From a virus (Duplodnaviria > Heunggongvirae > Uroviricota > Caudoviricetes), in IMG/VR virus record IMGVR_UViG_2648501437_000019, positions 1-21,072 of that record: 21,072 nucleotides of DNA; one strand, given 5' to 3'. A model generated the notes under the pieces. That model did not search any database. It was not told where the DNA came from and saw only the letters and a list, made by a program, of their open reading frames with translations. A program made the position numbers and the translations under genes. Positions 900 through 21,072 of this stretch are shown piece after piece. Each line of letters begins with the position of its first letter. Positions within the stretch are counted from its first letter, which is position 1.

Positions 900-1660
900 T
901 TGTTTATACCAATAAGAAAACAACTAAATAACAGATCAACGAAACGTCAACGCTTTCACCCGATTTGGTCTAAAAAATTGACGTTTTCACACATCACTGC
1001 TTATACCCGTAACTCTACGCAGCAGACAGCGCCACAGAGTCCAATTTTCACCACAGACGACTCAACACACTACCAACAAAAACACACGCTCAAAATCGCT
1101 CCCGCTGCGTTACACAACCATATAAACAACATATTTTCAGGTATAACAAAACAACTAAATAACACATATGCCATTCCCCAAAACAACCAACCTCTTTATG
1201 GCAGGCTACCGAAAAGACCCACCTCTTCTCCCCAGGCTACTGGACAACCAACCTAACTTTCACAGGCAATCCGAAAACATTCATACGCGCGATACCCACG
1301 ACACGCCATTCCCCAAACAGCGAAGAAACACCAGAATCACTGAAACCCCAACGAAGCCTGTAACCGCAAGGATTCTCTCAATCCCAAAAGACTCGAAGCA
1401 TAACAATCACGGGAAACGCCATTACCCAATACACGAATAACTACAAAAGCCTTTCACACACTCCAGACAAACAACTCAAACACAATAACGAAAGGAATCG
1501 CCCACCTGCCATTACTCCATACACGGAGAAGAACAATCACCAAAACGACGAGAACACCCCATAGAAGAACCACCGCAAAACGAACGAAACCACATACACC
1601 GACAGAGAAAACAACACACCCAATTCACCAACAGAAATAGTCGCCGTATAGAACATTCTG
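900..1660. other. G-depleted, A+C-rich non-coding tract
   Basis: The plus strand is about 77% A+C and 10% G in one hand-counted 60-nt stretch (1441-1500). The only ORFs (900-1256, 1168-1440) are low-complexity P/T/Q/N/H-rich with no SD; no minus-strand ORF of 60 aa or more. Contains a 16-bp direct repeat AAACAACTAAATAACA (about 917-932 and 1148-1163). Confidence 0.6.
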
Positions 1661-7029: not shown

Positions 7030-7554
7030 TTAAAATGGAAGGATTCGTTCAACCCAATCGAAGAAAACAAGTATTTTTCTGCCGTCTTCTAACTTAAGAG
7101 TGACCTGGCAAGCATCAACGCCTCTTGACACCCCTTCAATTTCACGACCGTCTGCCATGTAGACCCTTATAGATTGGTCGTTTTGATAAGCCTTGCGACA
7201 TATCGCAAAAAAGTCACGGCGTGATGGCTGATTGTCAACATAGTCTGGATGTATTGTTAGCCTACCTTTGAACTCGCGAGCAATGCCATCGATTACACCT
7301 GATTCAATTGTGCTAATGCGCTCAAGTGGGAGTCTTATACGATTTTCTTTATCATATGGAAGCGGGCATAAATCTAGCTTATTGCGGGAAGGCATTGTCC
7401 CCTGAACGTACATGCAAAACACCTGACCGTCTTCAAGCGTGACTCTTACAGGAATGTTGTTCTTCCGCCAGAACATAAGTATGTTTTCAGCATGTTCGTA
7501 GTCTCGCGGCCAGACTTCAGCCGGTATGCCGTAGGTGATGTCCGATGTTCTCAT
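7030..7554 (-). CDS. hypothetical cytoplasmic protein (174 aa)
   Basis: The start ATG overlaps the upstream stop (ATGA at 7551-7554), so it is translationally coupled. Confidence 0.6.
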   Translation of the reverse strand: MRTSDITYGIPAEVWPRDYEHAENILMFWRKNNIPVRVTLEDGQVFCMYVQGTMPSRNKLDLCPLPYDKENRIRLPLERISTIESGVIDGIAREFKGRLTIHPDYVDNQPSRRDFFAICRKAYQNDQSIRVYMADGREIEGVSRGVDACQVTLKLEDGRKILVFFDWVERILPF

Positions 7555-8654: not shown

Positions 8655-8763
8655 CTACAGTATCCGACCTTAGTTATCAATTGAAAAGCCTACAAATATC
8701 GTTCTGCCAATCAAGAAATTTTTTCAGCCGGAGGTGTGTACTTCAAAAAATGTGATGGATGTC

Positions 8764-8793
8764 ACATGCAGGTGCTCTCATACACCTGCATGT
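8764..8793 (-). terminator. terminator-like hairpin
   Basis: 11-bp perfect stem ACATGCAGGTG (8764-8774), 8-nt loop, CACCTGCATGT (8783-8793), 7 nt downstream of the stop at 8800; the U-run is displaced by about 17 nt. Confidence 0.35.
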
Positions 8794-8799
8794 AGACTA

Positions 8800-9366
8800 T
8801 TAATCATTCAATAATCTATATTTTCTTTTGATTAAATCTTCACCTTTTTTGGTGAACACAAAACCAAATTGCGATTTTTTGTTCAGCCTCAGTACTCTGT
8901 TATCCAACGCATCGGTTGATGGAATCAATGTTTGATCATCTATCCAATTAAGTAGCGTAAGAAAGTTCAGCAGCCTCAACGTTGTTGTGCGAAGCTCTTT
9001 CGATATATTTTCAATGCTGGCAATTCGTCTTTCTTTTTTCTCAGGTGGTACAGATAATTGTTCTTGAGGTTTCGTGGATAGATAATCAATTTCGTTTGCT
9101 GCATCGAATGATATGTGTGGCGTAATTTTGCTAAAAAAGCCTTTCGCTGACTCACTTGATAATAAACCAGACCTATTCATATCGTTTGTTATTCTGTACA
9201 GGAGTGGACTGTGTTTCATTTCAGGATAACGTTGATAAAAGTTAAGCAATTCAAAAGCAGCATTAGCACCAACAATAAAATCAGAAGGATCGCTGACTTT
9301 CCAGAAAGAATGATTTTTCTTAGCGCCAGTGGTGTCAACAAATGATAATTCTTTTAACCAACTCAT
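8800..9366 (-). CDS. hypothetical protein (188 aa)
   Basis: ATG at 9366 (MSWLKEL...) with AAAGGAG SD; the upstream in-frame ATGs at 9399 and 9396 lack an SD. Confidence 0.6.
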   Translation of the reverse strand: MSWLKELSFVDTTGAKKNHSFWKVSDPSDFIVGANAAFELLNFYQRYPEMKHSPLLYRITNDMNRSGLLSSESAKGFFSKITPHISFDAANEIDYLSTKPQEQLSVPPEKKERRIASIENISKELRTTTLRLLNFLTLLNWIDDQTLIPSTDALDNRVLRLNKKSQFGFVFTKKGEDLIKRKYRLLND

Positions 9367-9399
9367 GATGTGCTCCTTTCTAACAAGTGAGCACATCAT
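9365..9399 (-). promoter_or_regulatory. hairpin sequestering the SD and start codon of the 8800-9366 gene
   Basis: Perfect 11-bp inverted repeat ATGATGTGCTC (9365-9375) and GAGCACATCAT (9389-9399) with a 13-nt loop. On the mRNA the SD spans the loop/3'-arm junction and the ATG overlaps the end of the 3' arm. Confidence 0.45.
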
Positions 9400-9431
9400 A
9401 GAATTAGTAGATAGGGGGTAAATATAAAATG

Positions 9432-9710
9432 TTACGGCAACCTGCTCAGTATTTCCTCTAAATCTTTTTTTGTCATATTGGAGTTTTCATAGATGCGCAT
9501 GATTTTCTCACGCGTCTTAGCGGAAACCCCAACGGCAGATGTGACTTTGTCAAATTCAGCCATAGTCATCGTCTCCAGAATGGCATTGATAACTTCAGCC
9601 TTAGACATCTTGATTTTTTTCTCTTTGAGTTTTATTTGGAATTTTCCAAGTTTTTCATTGGCCTTATCAGACAATGCCACTTGGCAATAAGTTGTTTTCT
9701 TTTCGCTCAT
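9432..9710 (-). CDS. small hypothetical protein (92 aa)
   Basis: ATG 2 nt after the helicase stop codon; lysine-rich. No confident motif. Confidence 0.55.
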   Translation of the reverse strand: MSEKKTTYCQVALSDKANEKLGKFQIKLKEKKIKMSKAEVINAILETMTMAEFDKVTSAVGVSAKTREKIMRIYENSNMTKKDLEEILSRLP

Positions 9711-9712
9711 AA

Positions 9713-11272
9713 CTAATCTCGTTTCAGAACTCCAAAATCGAATGCGCCATCAATAGGCAATACACCTTCCGCAAAGCCAGGTGTGGTGTCGATGATGTGT
9801 TTTCGCTCATAAGAGTGAGACAACAGGTATTTGTTGCTAATGTCAATGAAATCAGTGATAAAACACACGTTTGCCTGATTCTTCTTGGCTCGTAAGCCAC
9901 GACCGACACGTTGTCTCATTTCAACTTCTGCTTTCCCACCACCAGCAAGAATGACCGCACCAACGCTTGGCACATCAACACCGACATCCAGAATAGTCGA
10001 GCCTATTAAAACATCTATTTCGCCAGACGCTAAACTGTTCAGCTTTGCTTGTCTTGTCGCCTGGTTCGATTCCCCATAGATAAAGTCAACTCTAAGGCCT
10101 GACTCCTTCATCATCTCCATCAGGATTTGCCCGTGGCGTTTAAGACGAACTAGAGTCATACAATTGAGAGAATGTTGCTTATAGAGCAATGCCTCGCGCA
10201 CTATGGCCTCGTTACGTCCCAAATTATACACGATCCCCAACTGATAAGCCTTTTGGTAGGCGGTGCTCATACCAACTCTAAAATTGAGGTGTTTGTTGGC
10301 AAGTTCGGCCTTGATTCTGGCCTCGTCTGGCTTGTAGGCAACTTTATGATAAAGGAAGTACGGCTTTGCCAGAATGCCTCGATCAATCAGGTACTTTTCT
10401 GTGACTTTAATTTCAATTCGCCCGGCCACCGCCATCAGACGCATGTTGGCTTCCGTCGAATCCTTCATGAACGGCGTGGCCGTAAGCGCCAGACGATAGT
10501 CTGCGTTCACACATAATCTGGCAATGTCATAGAAATTAGAACCTGAAGACTCATGCGCCTCTTCCAGAATAAGCAGAGACACACTTGAAAGGAAGCGTTT
10601 CACCAAGTCCCGACGTTTGAGGTGGTAGCTCTTCTTATCTGGAGTTGCATCGCGTGGTGGTTCTTCAAGGAAACTTGCCAGAGTTTGAACTGTAGCGACG
10701 TTGATATGTCGTGATACCTGGAACTCACCCGAGCCAATGACTCCAACCTTTTGGTCTTTTAACCACGGTTCGCCATTTTTGGCGCGGTAGTCGATGGATC
10801 TCTGGAAGTTTTCGGCCATTTGAAACATCAGAACAGAGCGGGTTGTTAAAAATAATGTCATTCGACCGATACGTGCAGCTGCTTTACAGGCAACGTTAGA
10901 TTTCCCGCCACCAGTAGCGATTTGCGCAATCATCATTCCCTCTCGAACTAGTGTTTCCACAGTCTGATCCTGATACGCATAATCAGGATTGTATGGGAAT
11001 GGGTTAACCGCCGGATTTGGTTTACCAAGCGCCGGGGCTTTGTCTTTGCGGATATGAACACATCTGATGCCCGCCTTGTTCAAGTTCGCCGCTACAGGCT
11101 TGGCAAAGCCAGCAGGGAACGAGTTTTTACTCCAGTTGAACATCGTGCTTGTGCCCTTCCAGTCGCCAGTCTCGACTTCGTAGCTCAACATTTGCTGCAC
11201 CAGTTGCTTTACCTTGTCATCTGCGCCAGAAATAAGCGCATTTACTGCGTTAGATACAATCCGAACAGTCAT
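9713..11272 (-). CDS. superfamily-2 DEAD/DEAH-box-type helicase (519 aa)
   Basis: Motif I ATGGGKS, motif II LILEEAH, motif III LTATP, motif VI QRVGRGLR; strong SD AAGGAAAGAGG upstream of the ATG at 11272. Confidence 0.85.
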   Translation of the reverse strand: MTVRIVSNAVNALISGADDKVKQLVQQMLSYEVETGDWKGTSTMFNWSKNSFPAGFAKPVAANLNKAGIRCVHIRKDKAPALGKPNPAVNPFPYNPDYAYQDQTVETLVREGMMIAQIATGGGKSNVACKAAARIGRMTLFLTTRSVLMFQMAENFQRSIDYRAKNGEPWLKDQKVGVIGSGEFQVSRHINVATVQTLASFLEEPPRDATPDKKSYHLKRRDLVKRFLSSVSLLILEEAHESSGSNFYDIARLCVNADYRLALTATPFMKDSTEANMRLMAVAGRIEIKVTEKYLIDRGILAKPYFLYHKVAYKPDEARIKAELANKHLNFRVGMSTAYQKAYQLGIVYNLGRNEAIVREALLYKQHSLNCMTLVRLKRHGQILMEMMKESGLRVDFIYGESNQATRQAKLNSLASGEIDVLIGSTILDVGVDVPSVGAVILAGGGKAEVEMRQRVGRGLRAKKNQANVCFITDFIDISNKYLLSHSYERKHIIDTTPGFAEGVLPIDGAFDFGVLKRD

Positions 11273-14528: not shown

Positions 14529-14561
14529 TCGGTCTGGGAGCTTATTTAAAGACCTGCATCT

Positions 14562-14599
14562 GTATATATAAATAATAAGTAACTTATTAAATATATACG
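14562..14599. promoter_or_regulatory. AT-rich imperfect palindrome of about 38 bp upstream of terS
   Basis: GTATATATAAATAATAAGT-A-ACTTATTAAATATATAC. Followed by direct repeats AAACAAGTTG (14647-14657, 14671-14681) and a hairpin AGAGCGC/GCGCTCT (14685-14704) with a T-run. Confidence 0.45.
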
Positions 14600-14723
14600 G
14601 AAGCAGGCTTCGTAAGACATGCCAGACCTAATTAAACACCCCAGAAAACAAGTTGGTTAGCAGATGCAGTAAACAAGTTGTTTTAGAGCGCATGGACGCG
14701 CTCTGTGTGTTTTAGAGGGATCT

Positions 14724-20096: not shown

Positions 20097-20585
20097 ATGC
20101 CAGAACAAAAGATGAAGATTACGGAAGAGGCATTTTCGGATTTTACGGGGCATATGTGCCGTGCCGGATTTACCAATTCTATCTCCGATGAACCTTTAAC
20201 CGAGCGGCAACAAAGTCAGCTATCTGCTTGTTTGCAGGCGGTTCCCCTCTCCCAATCCGTAAACATAACCCCGGCTTCACCGTCAGTTTTGGTTGGGAAA
20301 ACTGTTCAACTTAGTGCAGGTATTAGTATGGGTAAGAGTGCCAGTTCATTCACCTGGAAGTCAGCAAATGACCAAATTGCAACCGTTAATGGCACTGGAT
20401 TAGTAACTGGCGTAGCACCAGGCAAAGTAAAAATTACTGCAACTGATCAGGAAACCCAGCTTTCCGCGTCAGTGGAAGTCACCGTAAATCCGGTAGCCGT
20501 TCAATCCGTAACGGTAACGCCAGACTCAACCTCTGTTGAGAAAGGGAAATCAGTCAGTCTGAAAGCGAATGTTCAGCCGTCAAAT

Positions 20586-20588
<3 letters not shown>
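20097..20588 (+). pseudogene. Ig-like (Big_2) domain structural protein, 3'-truncated by IS insertion
   Basis: Big_2-like repeats (TVQLSAG..., FTWKSANDQIATVNGTGLVTGVAPGKVKITATDQ; a second repeat begins AVQSVTVTPDS). The reading frame ends at TGA 20586-20588, which is the first 3 nt of the IS terminus. Confidence 0.7.

Positions 20589-21072
<484 letters not shown>

What the first reader, a model, noticed from the sequence alone, without database searches (positions are those of the whole stretch)
9365..9399. Perfect 11-bp hairpin occluding the SD and start codon of the 188-aa accessory gene
On the mRNA the SD AAAGGAG spans the loop and 3' arm, and the ATG overlaps the end of the 3' arm of an 11-bp perfect stem. 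There is no U-run after it, so it reads as a translational control element, not a terminator. It would keep the first AT-rich accessory gene silent unless the structure is opened by an upstream ribosome, temperature, or an RNA or protein factor. Tight control is typical of toxic or defence genes.
Basis: seen in the sequence. Interest (0 to 1): 0.4.

Follow-up and report, generated by a model that had tools for sequence, protein, structure and literature searches.

The report
Conserved hairpin burying a ribosome-binding site
A very stable RNA stem-loop, kept across phage-plasmids of at least six enterobacterial genera, buries the ribosome-binding site and start codon of a small conserved gene; it is a well-known kind of translational lock, here in an undescribed example whose key is still unknown.

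Summary
The hairpin is real. A perfect 11-bp stem (9399-9389 / 9375-9365, minus strand, 13-nt loop) extends to a 22-bp structure spanning 9408-9357, with dG -28.5 kcal/mol and z = -8.1. The SD AAAGGAG and the ATG at 9366 lie inside it, and no U-run follows.

The window is an SSU5-like phage-plasmid of E. coli. The gene is the last cistron of a helicase / 92-aa / 188-aa operon that ends in a terminator. Among 127 genes of a sister plasmid, this RBS is by far the most occluded: -26 kcal/mol to open, against a mean of -7 and a next-worst of -15.

Twenty distinct versions from E. coli, Klebsiella, Salmonella, Cronobacter, Citrobacter and Enterobacter all keep at least a 12-bp stem over SD and AUG. 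They show compensatory changes (G-C to C-G; G-C/G-U/A-U). The loop varies from 11 to 25 nt and synonymous sites are saturated. The protein is under purifying selection (dN/dS 0.1-0.2), so it must be translated at some point.

Best reading: a default-off, cis-acting anti-RBS hairpin on the operon mRNA. Thermosensing, direct coupling to the upstream ORF, a terminator and a fixed-spacing DNA operator were tested and rejected. How the lock opens is unknown. The toxic-or-defence label has no support. This is a new member of a known kind.

The parts
9357..9408 (-). Complete RBS-sequestering stem-loop: lower stem 9408-9401 / 9364-9357, bulged U9400, perfect 11-bp stem, 13-nt loop
   Evidence: RNAfold gives -28.5 kcal/mol, z = -8.1. 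It is the only conserved structure in a 275-nt RNAalifold run on 13 lineages.
9389..9399 (-). 5' arm ATGATGTGCTC, the non-coding anti-RBS strand
   Evidence: Its upper 8 nt are essentially invariant in 20 variants (one transition to a G.U pair, in the gene-deleted variant L004), although synonymous divergence between lineages reaches 0.5 to more than 2. One position changes G to C together with its partner.
9376..9388 (-). Loop ACTTGTTAGAAAG. It is variable in sequence apart from the AAAG of the SD, and varies in length (11-25 nt) among relatives
9365..9375 (-). 3' arm GAGCACATCAT: the last 3 nt of the SD, the spacer, and the first 2 nt of the start codon
9373..9379 (-). Shine-Dalgarno AAAGGAG, 6 nt before the ATG
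   Evidence: Read from the sequence. AAAGGAG is conserved in 19 of 20 variants; L044 has ACGGAG.
9364..9366 (-). Start codon ATG of the 188-aa gene
   Evidence: Same start in the PGAP annotation of a 99%-identical plasmid. The protein alignment is conserved from residue 1.
9413..9422 (-). Conserved single-stranded pyrimidine tract TTTACCCCCT (TTTTTCCCC in other lineages), 5 nt upstream of the stem. Function unknown
   Evidence: T and C columns are invariant or nearly so in alignment A3. The tract is unpaired in all folds. It is not a recurring promoter motif in the plasmid.
9395..9422 (-). Weak sigma-70-like promoter match TTTACC-16 nt-TATGAT, whose -10 hexamer lies in the 5' arm. A transcript from it would start in the loop and lack the 5' arm
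   Evidence: 9 of 12 match. The homologous positions in other lineages read TTTTTC-16-CATCAT, about 6 of 12, so it is not conserved.
8800..9366 (-). 188-aa gene (PHROG 13473, unknown function), last cistron of the operon
9432..9710 (-). 92-aa gene (PHROG 1466, unknown function) directly upstream. Its stop codon lies 23 nt before the base of the stem
   Evidence: The structure model has low confidence, pLDDT 54.
9713..11272 (-). DEAD/DEAH-box (UvsW-like) helicase gene, first cistron of the operon
   Evidence: Pfam ResIII, DEAD and Helicase_C; annotation.
8745..8793 (-). Double-hairpin terminator that closes the operon: ACATGCAGGTG-N8-CACCTGCATGT, then TGTGA-N6-TCACA followed by T6
   Evidence: (I14). 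The architecture is conserved in 13 of 15 lineages, with many compensatory changes in hairpin 1.

Best explanation
The element is a cis-acting anti-RBS stem-loop on the polycistronic helicase / 92-aa / 188-aa mRNA of an SSU5-like phage-plasmid. A non-coding 5' arm pairs with the last three bases of a strong SD, the spacer, the AUG and, in this lineage, codons 2-3. The 30S subunit therefore cannot bind, and the last cistron is translationally uncoupled from the two genes ahead of it (default OFF).

Shown here: the structure, its extreme stability, its conservation with compensatory changes, and purifying selection on the protein.

Inferred: it blocks translation, and because the protein is evidently made, the block must be relieved. 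Relief would come from RNAs in which the 5' arm is missing or captured.

My ranking of relief routes:
- About 0.3: 5'-truncated RNA. This could come from initiation inside the hairpin, and in this lineage the 5' arm itself reads as a -10 hexamer (TATGAT) with TTTACC 16 nt upstream, the logic of T4 gene e and IS10. It could also come from nuclease cleavage in the A/U-rich loop or in the 22-bp stem.
- About 0.3: a trans factor, protein or sRNA, that binds the conserved pyrimidine tract and 5' arm, the logic of Mu Com-mom or DsrA-rpoS.
- About 0.3: no switch at all, only a permanent strong attenuation that leaves trace expression.
For: - The SD and AUG are inside a -28.5 kcal/mol hairpin, z = -8.1.
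- The cost of opening positions -18 to +10 is -26.1 kcal/mol. That is the most extreme of 127 CDS in sister plasmid p009_B (mean -7.2, sd 3.9, next -15.3).
- 20 distinct homologous sequences from six genera all keep a stem of at least 12 bp (-20 to -30 kcal/mol) over SD and AUG.
- 86% of cells are paired, against 24-50% when the 3' partner is slid by 1-3 columns. The covariation score is 0.156 against 0.091 +/- 0.010 in shuffles, with 0 of 500 shuffles reaching it.
- Pair 9 is C-G in 13 sequences and G-C in 7. Pair 15 runs G-C, G.U, A-U.
- RNAalifold over 275 nt finds this stem as the only conserved structure.
- Loop length varies from 11 to 25 nt.
- The gene has dN/dS 0.08-0.18, and dS between lineages is 0.4 to more than 2. 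A 12-nt non-coding arm would not persist neutrally at that divergence.
- The SD is strong (AAAGGAG) with optimal 6-nt spacing. That fits a switchable site better than a permanently weak one (inference).
- The gene is followed by a conserved terminator, and no conserved promoter precedes it, so it is read from the operon mRNA.
- Established precedents exist: T4 e, soc, 49 and I-TevI (PMC3014915) and Mu mom (PMC6483171).
Against: - There are no expression data of any kind.
- The relief mechanism is not identified. The plasmid holds no second copy of either arm and no additional covariance-model hit. No conserved alternative pairing was found. The promoter-like site is confined to this lineage.
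- Across the family, the sense strand does not fold better than the antisense strand (10 of 20), and G.U-type and A.C-type departures are equally frequent, 6 against 5. The wobble argument for an RNA on this particular strand therefore holds only for the window lineage (-28.5 against -19.4).
- Three independent variants that lost the gene still carry the hairpin: L004, L040 and L109. That could mean the hairpin also serves the upstream message.
- Only about 6-8 independent lineages exist, so the covariation rests on few events.
Confidence: 0.7

Rival explanations
1. The stem-loop mainly serves the upstream genes. It would be an intercistronic RNA stability barrier or processing site, either a 3'-exonuclease block or an RNase III site, that defines the 3' end of the helicase / 92-aa message. 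On this reading the overlap with the RBS is secondary or merely an added benefit.
For: Three independent gene-deletion variants keep the hairpin plus only 5-8 codons (L004, L040, L109). In L109 the stem is a perfect 18 bp and the SD is gone. The window version has about 22 bp of helix, the size of RNase III substrates. Relatives that lack both gene and hairpin place a true terminator directly after the 92-aa gene instead (L039).
Against: The 3' arm always consists of exactly SD, spacer and AUG. Several lineages have only 12 bp, too short for RNase III in vivo. All of the L109 changes can be explained by a single template-switch (quasipalindrome correction) event that copied the 5' arm, so selection need not be invoked. 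In L004 the stem has begun to decay. A stability hairpin does not need to sit on the RBS in every lineage.
Confidence: 0.15
2. The hairpin silences only read-through transcripts. The gene has its own promoter whose -10 element is the 5' arm, so its own transcripts start in the loop, lack the 5' arm and are translated freely. This is the arrangement of T4 gene e and of IS10 fold-back inhibition. It is one specific version of the relief step in the main explanation.
For: The sigma-70-like match TTTACC-16-TATGAT at 9422-9395 scores 9 of 12. Its -10 hexamer is the bulged U plus the first 5 nt of the 5' arm, and the predicted start is near 9388, in the loop. The homologous CATCAT in other lineages keeps the two key bases of a -10 hexamer, A at position 2 and T at position 6. 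The precedent is documented for T4 (PMC3014915).
Against: The scan found 17 such matches in 5.8 kb against 13.3 +/- 3.7 in shuffles, so a 9-of-12 hit is unremarkable. The -35 region in other lineages is TTTTTC, 2 of 6. The conserved pyrimidine tract does not recur upstream of other genes, so it is not a phage promoter class. No transcription-start data are available.
Confidence: 0.2
3. The inverted repeat acts as double-stranded DNA: a palindromic operator for a dimeric DNA-binding protein. Candidates are the 188-aa protein itself, which may carry a winged-helix domain, or the 92-aa protein.
For: The core is a perfect 12-bp palindrome whose upper 8 bp are sequence-invariant. Folding shows no strand asymmetry across the family. 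The C-terminal domain of the 188-aa protein weakly resembles MerR/Par/RacA DNA-binding domains.
Against: The spacer between half-sites varies: 11, 13, 14 and 25 bp. That is incompatible with a dimer of fixed geometry. No conserved promoter is available to regulate. A symmetric G-C to C-G swap in both half-sites would change the contacted bases. The invariant 3' arm is already explained by the SD and AUG. The site is single-copy in the plasmid.
Confidence: 0.06
4. The inverted repeat is a chance occurrence with no function.
For: None beyond the small number of independent lineages.
Against: z = -8.1. The RBS is an outlier among 127 genes. The stem is conserved with compensatory changes despite saturated synonymous divergence.
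Confidence: 0.01

Closest known systems
Inhibitory RBS hairpins of phage T4 genes e, soc, 49 and I-TevI (reviewed in PMC3014915)
   Same: A phage gene whose SD and/or AUG is sequestered in a helix on transcripts that read in from upstream. The 5' strand of the helix is non-coding DNA just upstream of the RBS, and the structure is conserved among related phages.
   Different: In T4, a late promoter (TATAAATA) inside the region that encodes the 5' strand produces open transcripts. Here a promoter-like match exists only in the window lineage and is weak. The stem is also far more stable than is needed for the roughly 100-fold repression reported for gene e.
Phage Mu mom translation inhibition structure, opened by the Com protein (PMC6483171)
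   Same: A stem-loop buries the translation start signals of the distal gene of a small operon. There is a conserved element immediately 5' of the inhibitory stem, and the gene directly upstream is a small protein of the same operon.
   Different: Com is a zinc-finger protein that binds a small hairpin. The 92-aa protein has no detectable zinc finger or RNA-binding domain. The adjacent element here is a single-stranded pyrimidine tract. No binding has been tested.
IS10 / IS50 fold-back inhibition of transposase translation on read-through transcripts (from my own knowledge: Davis, Simons and Kleckner 1985; Schulz and Reznikoff 1991)
   Same: An upstream complementary segment pairs with the RBS only on transcripts that start outside the element. 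This insulates the gene from external transcription.
   Different: Those elements have a defined internal promoter. Here the gene lies inside an operon and an internal promoter is not established.
MS2/Qbeta replicase translational operator, and the T4 gp43 and RegA operators
   Same: A hairpin at the initiation region acts as the regulatory unit. The upper stem here is sequence-invariant, as expected for a protein-recognised operator.
   Different: Those hairpins are weak on their own, and a bound repressor stabilises or occludes them. This one is stable enough to block initiation without any protein.
rpoS leader and DsrA/RprA/ArcZ (anti-antisense activation); adhE leader and RNase III (from my own knowledge)
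   Same: The RBS is locked in a long helix, and activation comes from capture or cleavage of the upstream strand.
   Different: No complementary sRNA candidate was found in the plasmid. Host sRNAs were not searched. Stems of 12 bp in some lineages are poor RNase III substrates.

Membership tests
RBS-sequestering translational hairpin (cis-repressor) | A stable helix includes the SD and/or the start codon of a real gene | tested here: met
   SD 9379-9373 and ATG 9366-9364 lie inside a -28.5 kcal/mol stem. The start codon is confirmed by the annotation of a near-identical plasmid and by N-terminal conservation.
RBS-sequestering translational hairpin (cis-repressor) | The structure is maintained by selection: conservation with compensatory changes in homologues | tested here: met
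   All 20 variants keep at least 12 bp. Pair types are C-G/G-C and G-C/G.U/A-U. 86% of cells are paired against 24-50% when slid, with dS between lineages of 0.4 to more than 2.
RBS-sequestering translational hairpin (cis-repressor) | Disrupting the stem raises translation, and compensatory mutations restore repression | not testable with these tools
   This needs reporter fusions.
Intrinsic (Rho-independent) terminator | A G+C-rich stem immediately followed by a U-run | tested here: not met
   The sequence after the stem is GAGUUGGUUAAAAG, and the terminator scan finds no site there. The operon's real terminator is at 8793-8745.
RNA thermometer | The stem melts between about 30 and 42 C, freeing the SD | tested here: not met
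   Predicted dG is -25.9 kcal/mol at 42 C. The SD-AUG segment is more than 97% paired up to 60 C, and the shortest variant (L005) is 92% paired.
Translational coupling / leader-peptide control | An upstream ORF ends inside or right next to the inhibitory stem, so that its ribosome melts the stem | tested here: not met
   The stop codon of the 92-aa ORF (9434-9432) is 23 nt from the base of the stem. No other sense ORF of 20 codons or more enters the hairpin. The ATG in the 5' arm has no SD, and its reading frame is not conserved.
T4 gene e / IS10-type bypass by an internal promoter | A promoter lies within the DNA that encodes the 5' strand, so that its transcripts lack that strand | tested here: inconclusive
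   A 9-of-12 sigma-70 match at 9422-9395 is present in the window lineage only, and such matches are no more frequent than in shuffled sequence. The other lineages score about 6 of 12.
Riboswitch or any curated cis-regulatory RNA (Rfam 15) | A match to a curated covariance model, or an aptamer domain | tested here: not met
   There is no Rfam hit at gathering threshold anywhere in the window. The only hit over the hairpin is a chance match to a miRNA model at E = 6.3. The intergenic region is only 65 nt long.
Palindromic DNA operator | Two half-sites at a fixed centre-to-centre distance | tested here: not met
   The spacer is 11, 13, 14 or 25 bp in different lineages.
Anti-antisense sRNA-activated leader (rpoS type) | A trans-encoded RNA complementary to the 5' strand of the inhibitory helix | tested here: inconclusive
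   The 110-kb sister plasmid contains no candidate. Host chromosomes were not searched.

The most novel reading that the evidence does not exclude
The sequence-invariant upper stem and the conserved pyrimidine tract next to it may form a translational operator read by a protein encoded on the phage-plasmid. One candidate is the co-transcribed 92-aa protein, acting as a Com-like activator. Another is the FljA-family protein three genes downstream (7554-7030); FljA is an RNA-binding translational repressor of flagellin mRNA. The gene under control would encode a MerR/Par-like DNA-binding protein that takes part in the choice between plasmid maintenance and lytic growth. That would be a new post-transcriptional switch in the SSU5 group, and a new role for an FljA-family protein outside flagellar phase variation.
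Probability: 0.1. Interest if true: 0.6.

Novelty: new member of a known kind. Interest (0 to 1): 0.3.

Why it matters
SSU5-like phage-plasmids are common in clinical E. coli, Klebsiella and Salmonella, where they carry resistance genes, and almost nothing is known about how they are regulated. This element marks one conserved gene of unknown function as being under unusually strict post-transcriptional control. That makes the gene a reasonable candidate for a dosage-sensitive regulator. It also offers a compact 52-nt, experimentally tractable handle for finding the condition or factor that turns the gene on. As a mechanism, however, RBS sequestration is textbook, so the finding adds an instance and not a principle.

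Tried and rejected
- **Rfam.** Searching the locus and the whole window found no family.
- **Second copy in the plasmid.** I searched the 110-kb sister plasmid for another copy of either arm, for RNA duplex partners of the 5' arm plus tract, and for further hits with a covariance model built from 21 variants. Only the element itself and trivial palindromic reverse-strand hits appeared.
- **Pattern scan of IMG/VR.** Scanning for ATGTGCTC-N9-30-GAGCACAT gave many chance hits. The covariance model retained only SSU5-like contigs plus one gene-deleted variant, L109.
- **Strand specificity.** I expected G.U pairs to show that the RNA of this strand is the selected form. Across the family they do not: G.U against A.C departures are 6 to 5, and the sense strand folds better in 10 of 20. 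I dropped that argument except for the window lineage.
- **Alternative structures.** RNAalifold on 275 nt found no conserved anti-sequestering pairing.
- **Stop-codon read-through from the 92-aa ORF.** The frame and end point are not conserved between lineages, by inspection, so this was rejected.
- **Pyrimidine tract as a phage promoter element.** It does not recur upstream of other genes.
- **Function of the two neighbouring proteins.** Pfam, PHROGs, PADLOC and PDB sequence searches gave nothing usable. The 92-aa model is too poor (pLDDT 54) to use for a fold search, and my by-eye ribbon-helix-helix guess stays unverified. The 188-aa model gives only weak winged-helix matches. The afdb50 fold library was unavailable.
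- **Literature.** Searches on SSU5/pHCM2 found no mention of this element. One preprint could not be opened.

Full report
**What is in the sequence.** On the minus strand the window reads 5'-ACUAAUUC-U-AUGAUGUGCUC-ACUUGUUAGAAAG-GAGCACAUCAU-GAGUUGGU-3' (9408 to 9357). The two 11-nt arms (9399-9389 and 9375-9365) are perfectly complementary, with 13 nt between them. The SD AAAGGAG (9379-9373) straddles the loop and the 3' arm. In the ATG (9366-9364), A and T lie in the perfect arm and G pairs in an 8-bp lower stem that runs into codons 2-3. RNAfold gives -28.5 kcal/mol for the 52-nt structure. Dinucleotide shuffles give -9.5 +/- 2.35, so z = -8.1, and none of 200 fold as well. No U-run follows and no terminator-like site is called there.

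**Genomic context.**
- The window is an SSU5-like phage-plasmid of E. coli, with terminase, portal, capsid, ParB-like and helicase genes.
- The locus matches 216 of 5,426 complete E. coli genomes, always on plasmids of about 110 kb. It also matches phages Cyrano, PhiR41_1 and CMS-2020a.
- The minus-strand genes are a DEAD/DEAH helicase (11272-9713), a 92-aa protein (9710-9432) and the 188-aa protein (9366-8800).
- They are followed by a conserved double-hairpin terminator (8793-8745) and a new promoter region. The hairpin therefore guards the last cistron of a three-gene operon.
- PGAP starts the gene at the same ATG in a 99%-identical plasmid.
- The in-frame ATGs inside the 5' arm lack an SD. 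In relatives with a 14-nt loop they are out of frame. The refutation condition that the hairpin might be coding sequence therefore does not apply.

**Is it exceptional?** For the 127 annotated CDS of sister plasmid p009_B, I computed the energy needed to unpair positions -18 to +10. This gene costs -26.1 kcal/mol. The mean is -7.2 (sd 3.9) and the next worst is -15.3. The element is single-copy: there is no second copy of either arm and no further covariance-model hit in the 110 kb. No Rfam family matches.

**Comparative evidence.**
- Homologues of the 188-aa protein (36-45% identical; 35 clusters at 90% identity) occur only in SSU5-like elements. Hosts are Escherichia, Klebsiella, Salmonella, Cronobacter, Citrobacter and Enterobacter, and the gene always sits directly after the 92-aa gene.
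- I collected 20 distinct versions of the intergenic region. Every one has a stem of at least 12 bp (CAUCAUGUGCUC / GAGCACAUGAUG or the window variant; -20 to -30 kcal/mol) that contains the last 3 nt of the SD and the AUG.
- The window lineage differs from all others by a double change that keeps a pair: G-C instead of C-G, which also turns the first of two tandem ATGs into ATC.
- Another pair runs through G-C, G.U and A-U as the third position of codon 2 switches between C and U.
- On the MAFFT alignment, 86% of cells are paired, against 24-50% when the 3' partner is slid. The covariation score is 0.156 against 0.091 +/- 0.010, reached by 0 of 500 shuffles. The covariance-model alignment gives the same picture.
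- RNAalifold on 275 nt from 13 lineages finds this stem and nothing else.
- The loop varies in sequence and in length from 11 to 25 nt.
- Synonymous divergence between lineages is 0.4 to more than 2, while dN/dS is 0.08-0.18. The protein is thus made and needed, and a 12-nt non-coding arm would not survive unchanged without selection.
- The only evident property of that arm is complementarity to the RBS.

**What it is not.**
- It is not a thermosensor: the SD-AUG segment stays more than 97% paired up to 60 C.
- It is not classical coupling. The upstream ORF stops 23 nt before the stem, beyond the reach of a terminating ribosome (established knowledge of the ribosome footprint), and no other sense ORF enters the stem.
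- It is not an intrinsic terminator.
- It is not a fixed-geometry DNA operator, because the spacer varies from 11 to 25 bp.
- The pyrimidine tract TTTACCCCCT (9422-9413; TTTTTCCCC elsewhere) is conserved and unpaired. It does not recur upstream of other genes, and its role is open.

**Caveats I could not remove.**
- I expected G.U pairs to prove that the RNA of this strand is the functional form. That holds for the window lineage (-28.5 sense against -19.4 antisense) but not for the family.
- Three independent variants that lost the gene still carry the hairpin plus 5-8 codons (L004, L040, L109). In L109 the stem has become a perfect 18-bp palindrome and the SD is lost.
- A single template-switch event copying the 5' arm explains every L109 change, so selection need not be invoked. 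The pattern still leaves room for a second role, as a stability or processing element for the upstream message.
- Plasmids that lack both gene and hairpin, including SSU5 itself, show that the module is dispensable.

**Mechanism.** I commit, at 0.7, to a default-off anti-RBS hairpin that uncouples the last cistron from the helicase and 92-aa genes. A strong SD at optimal spacing locked by a very stable stem, together with purifying selection on the protein, argues for conditional opening over a merely weak site (inference). The opening step is unknown, and I rank three routes about equally.
- RNAs lacking the 5' arm. In this lineage the 5' arm doubles as a -10-like TATGAT with TTTACC 16 nt upstream, which is the logic of T4 gene e and IS10 (PMC3014915). 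The match is weak and lineage-specific. Nuclease cleavage is an alternative route to such RNAs.
- A trans factor that binds the tract and the 5' arm, as Com does for mom (PMC6483171).
- Permanent attenuation to trace levels.

**Verdict.** The interpretation as a translational control element is the best-supported reading, but it rests on structure and evolution only. This is a new, undescribed member of a well-known class, of modest interest.

Noticed in passing
window 7030-7554 (- strand): A 174-aa protein of the FljA family (Pfam PF03614 'Repressor of phase-1 flagellin', E = 5e-81, with faint Hfq/LSM similarity) sits in a phage-plasmid that carries no flagellin gene. It is conserved downstream of the variable region in relatives. 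FljA is known as an RNA-binding translational repressor of fliC mRNA, so the phage-plasmid may silence host flagellin or use the protein on its own RNAs.
   Followed up: partly
window ~900-1650 (+ strand): A stretch of about 750 nt is strongly strand-asymmetric: A+C-rich and G/T-poor (GC skew -0.46, AT skew +0.41). It has no credible ORF, no Rfam hit and no tandem repeat. More than 200 SSU5-like plasmids cover at least 80% of it, and no listed match has an annotated feature under it.
   Followed up: partly
window 20594-21010 (- strand) and 20097-20588 (+ strand): An IS3-family transposase (rve domains) at the window edge appears to truncate the Big_2 Ig-like domain gene. The gene encodes 163 aa here, against 306 aa in sister plasmid p009_B.
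   Followed up: partly
window 8745-8793 (- strand); homologous sites in L003, L006-L008, L041, L043, L045-L050: The operon's terminator is a conserved pair of adjacent hairpins. The first has no U-run and shows many compensatory changes between lineages. The second (GTGAT...ATCAC) carries the U-run. Directly downstream lies a conserved CACCTCCGGCTGAAAAAA...TTGATTGG promoter region.
   Followed up: partly
L109:8984-9090 (IMGVR_UViG_2579778564_000015): In this gene-deleted variant the RBS hairpin has become a perfect 18-bp palindrome, and the SD is overwritten. Every change in the 3' arm is the reverse complement of the 5' arm, which looks like a single template-switch (quasipalindrome correction) event.
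   Followed up: partly
L005:2190-2235 (Salmonella pSAN1-1735): The hairpin after the gene in this lineage (AATGTGCTGACAT / ATGTCAGCACATG) shares the words ATGTGCT and AGCACATGAT with the RBS hairpin in front of the same gene. This could be coincidence or a shared recognition element. I did not pursue it.
   Followed up: no
L038:2590-2650 (E. coli pGD31-F25 type): In the common E. coli variant that lacks the 188-aa gene, a lipoprotein-like gene follows the 92-aa gene. It also has a small SD-occluding hairpin (GGGAGAC-N9-GTCTCCC, -12 kcal/mol) with its ATG in the loop.
   Followed up: no
window 14553-14607: Nested A/T-rich inverted repeats (CCTGCATCTGTATATAT...ATATATACGGAAGCAGG, with an inner palindrome) lie in the intergenic region before the terminase-proximal genes. 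They could be a regulatory or packaging site (I2 and I5).
   Followed up: no
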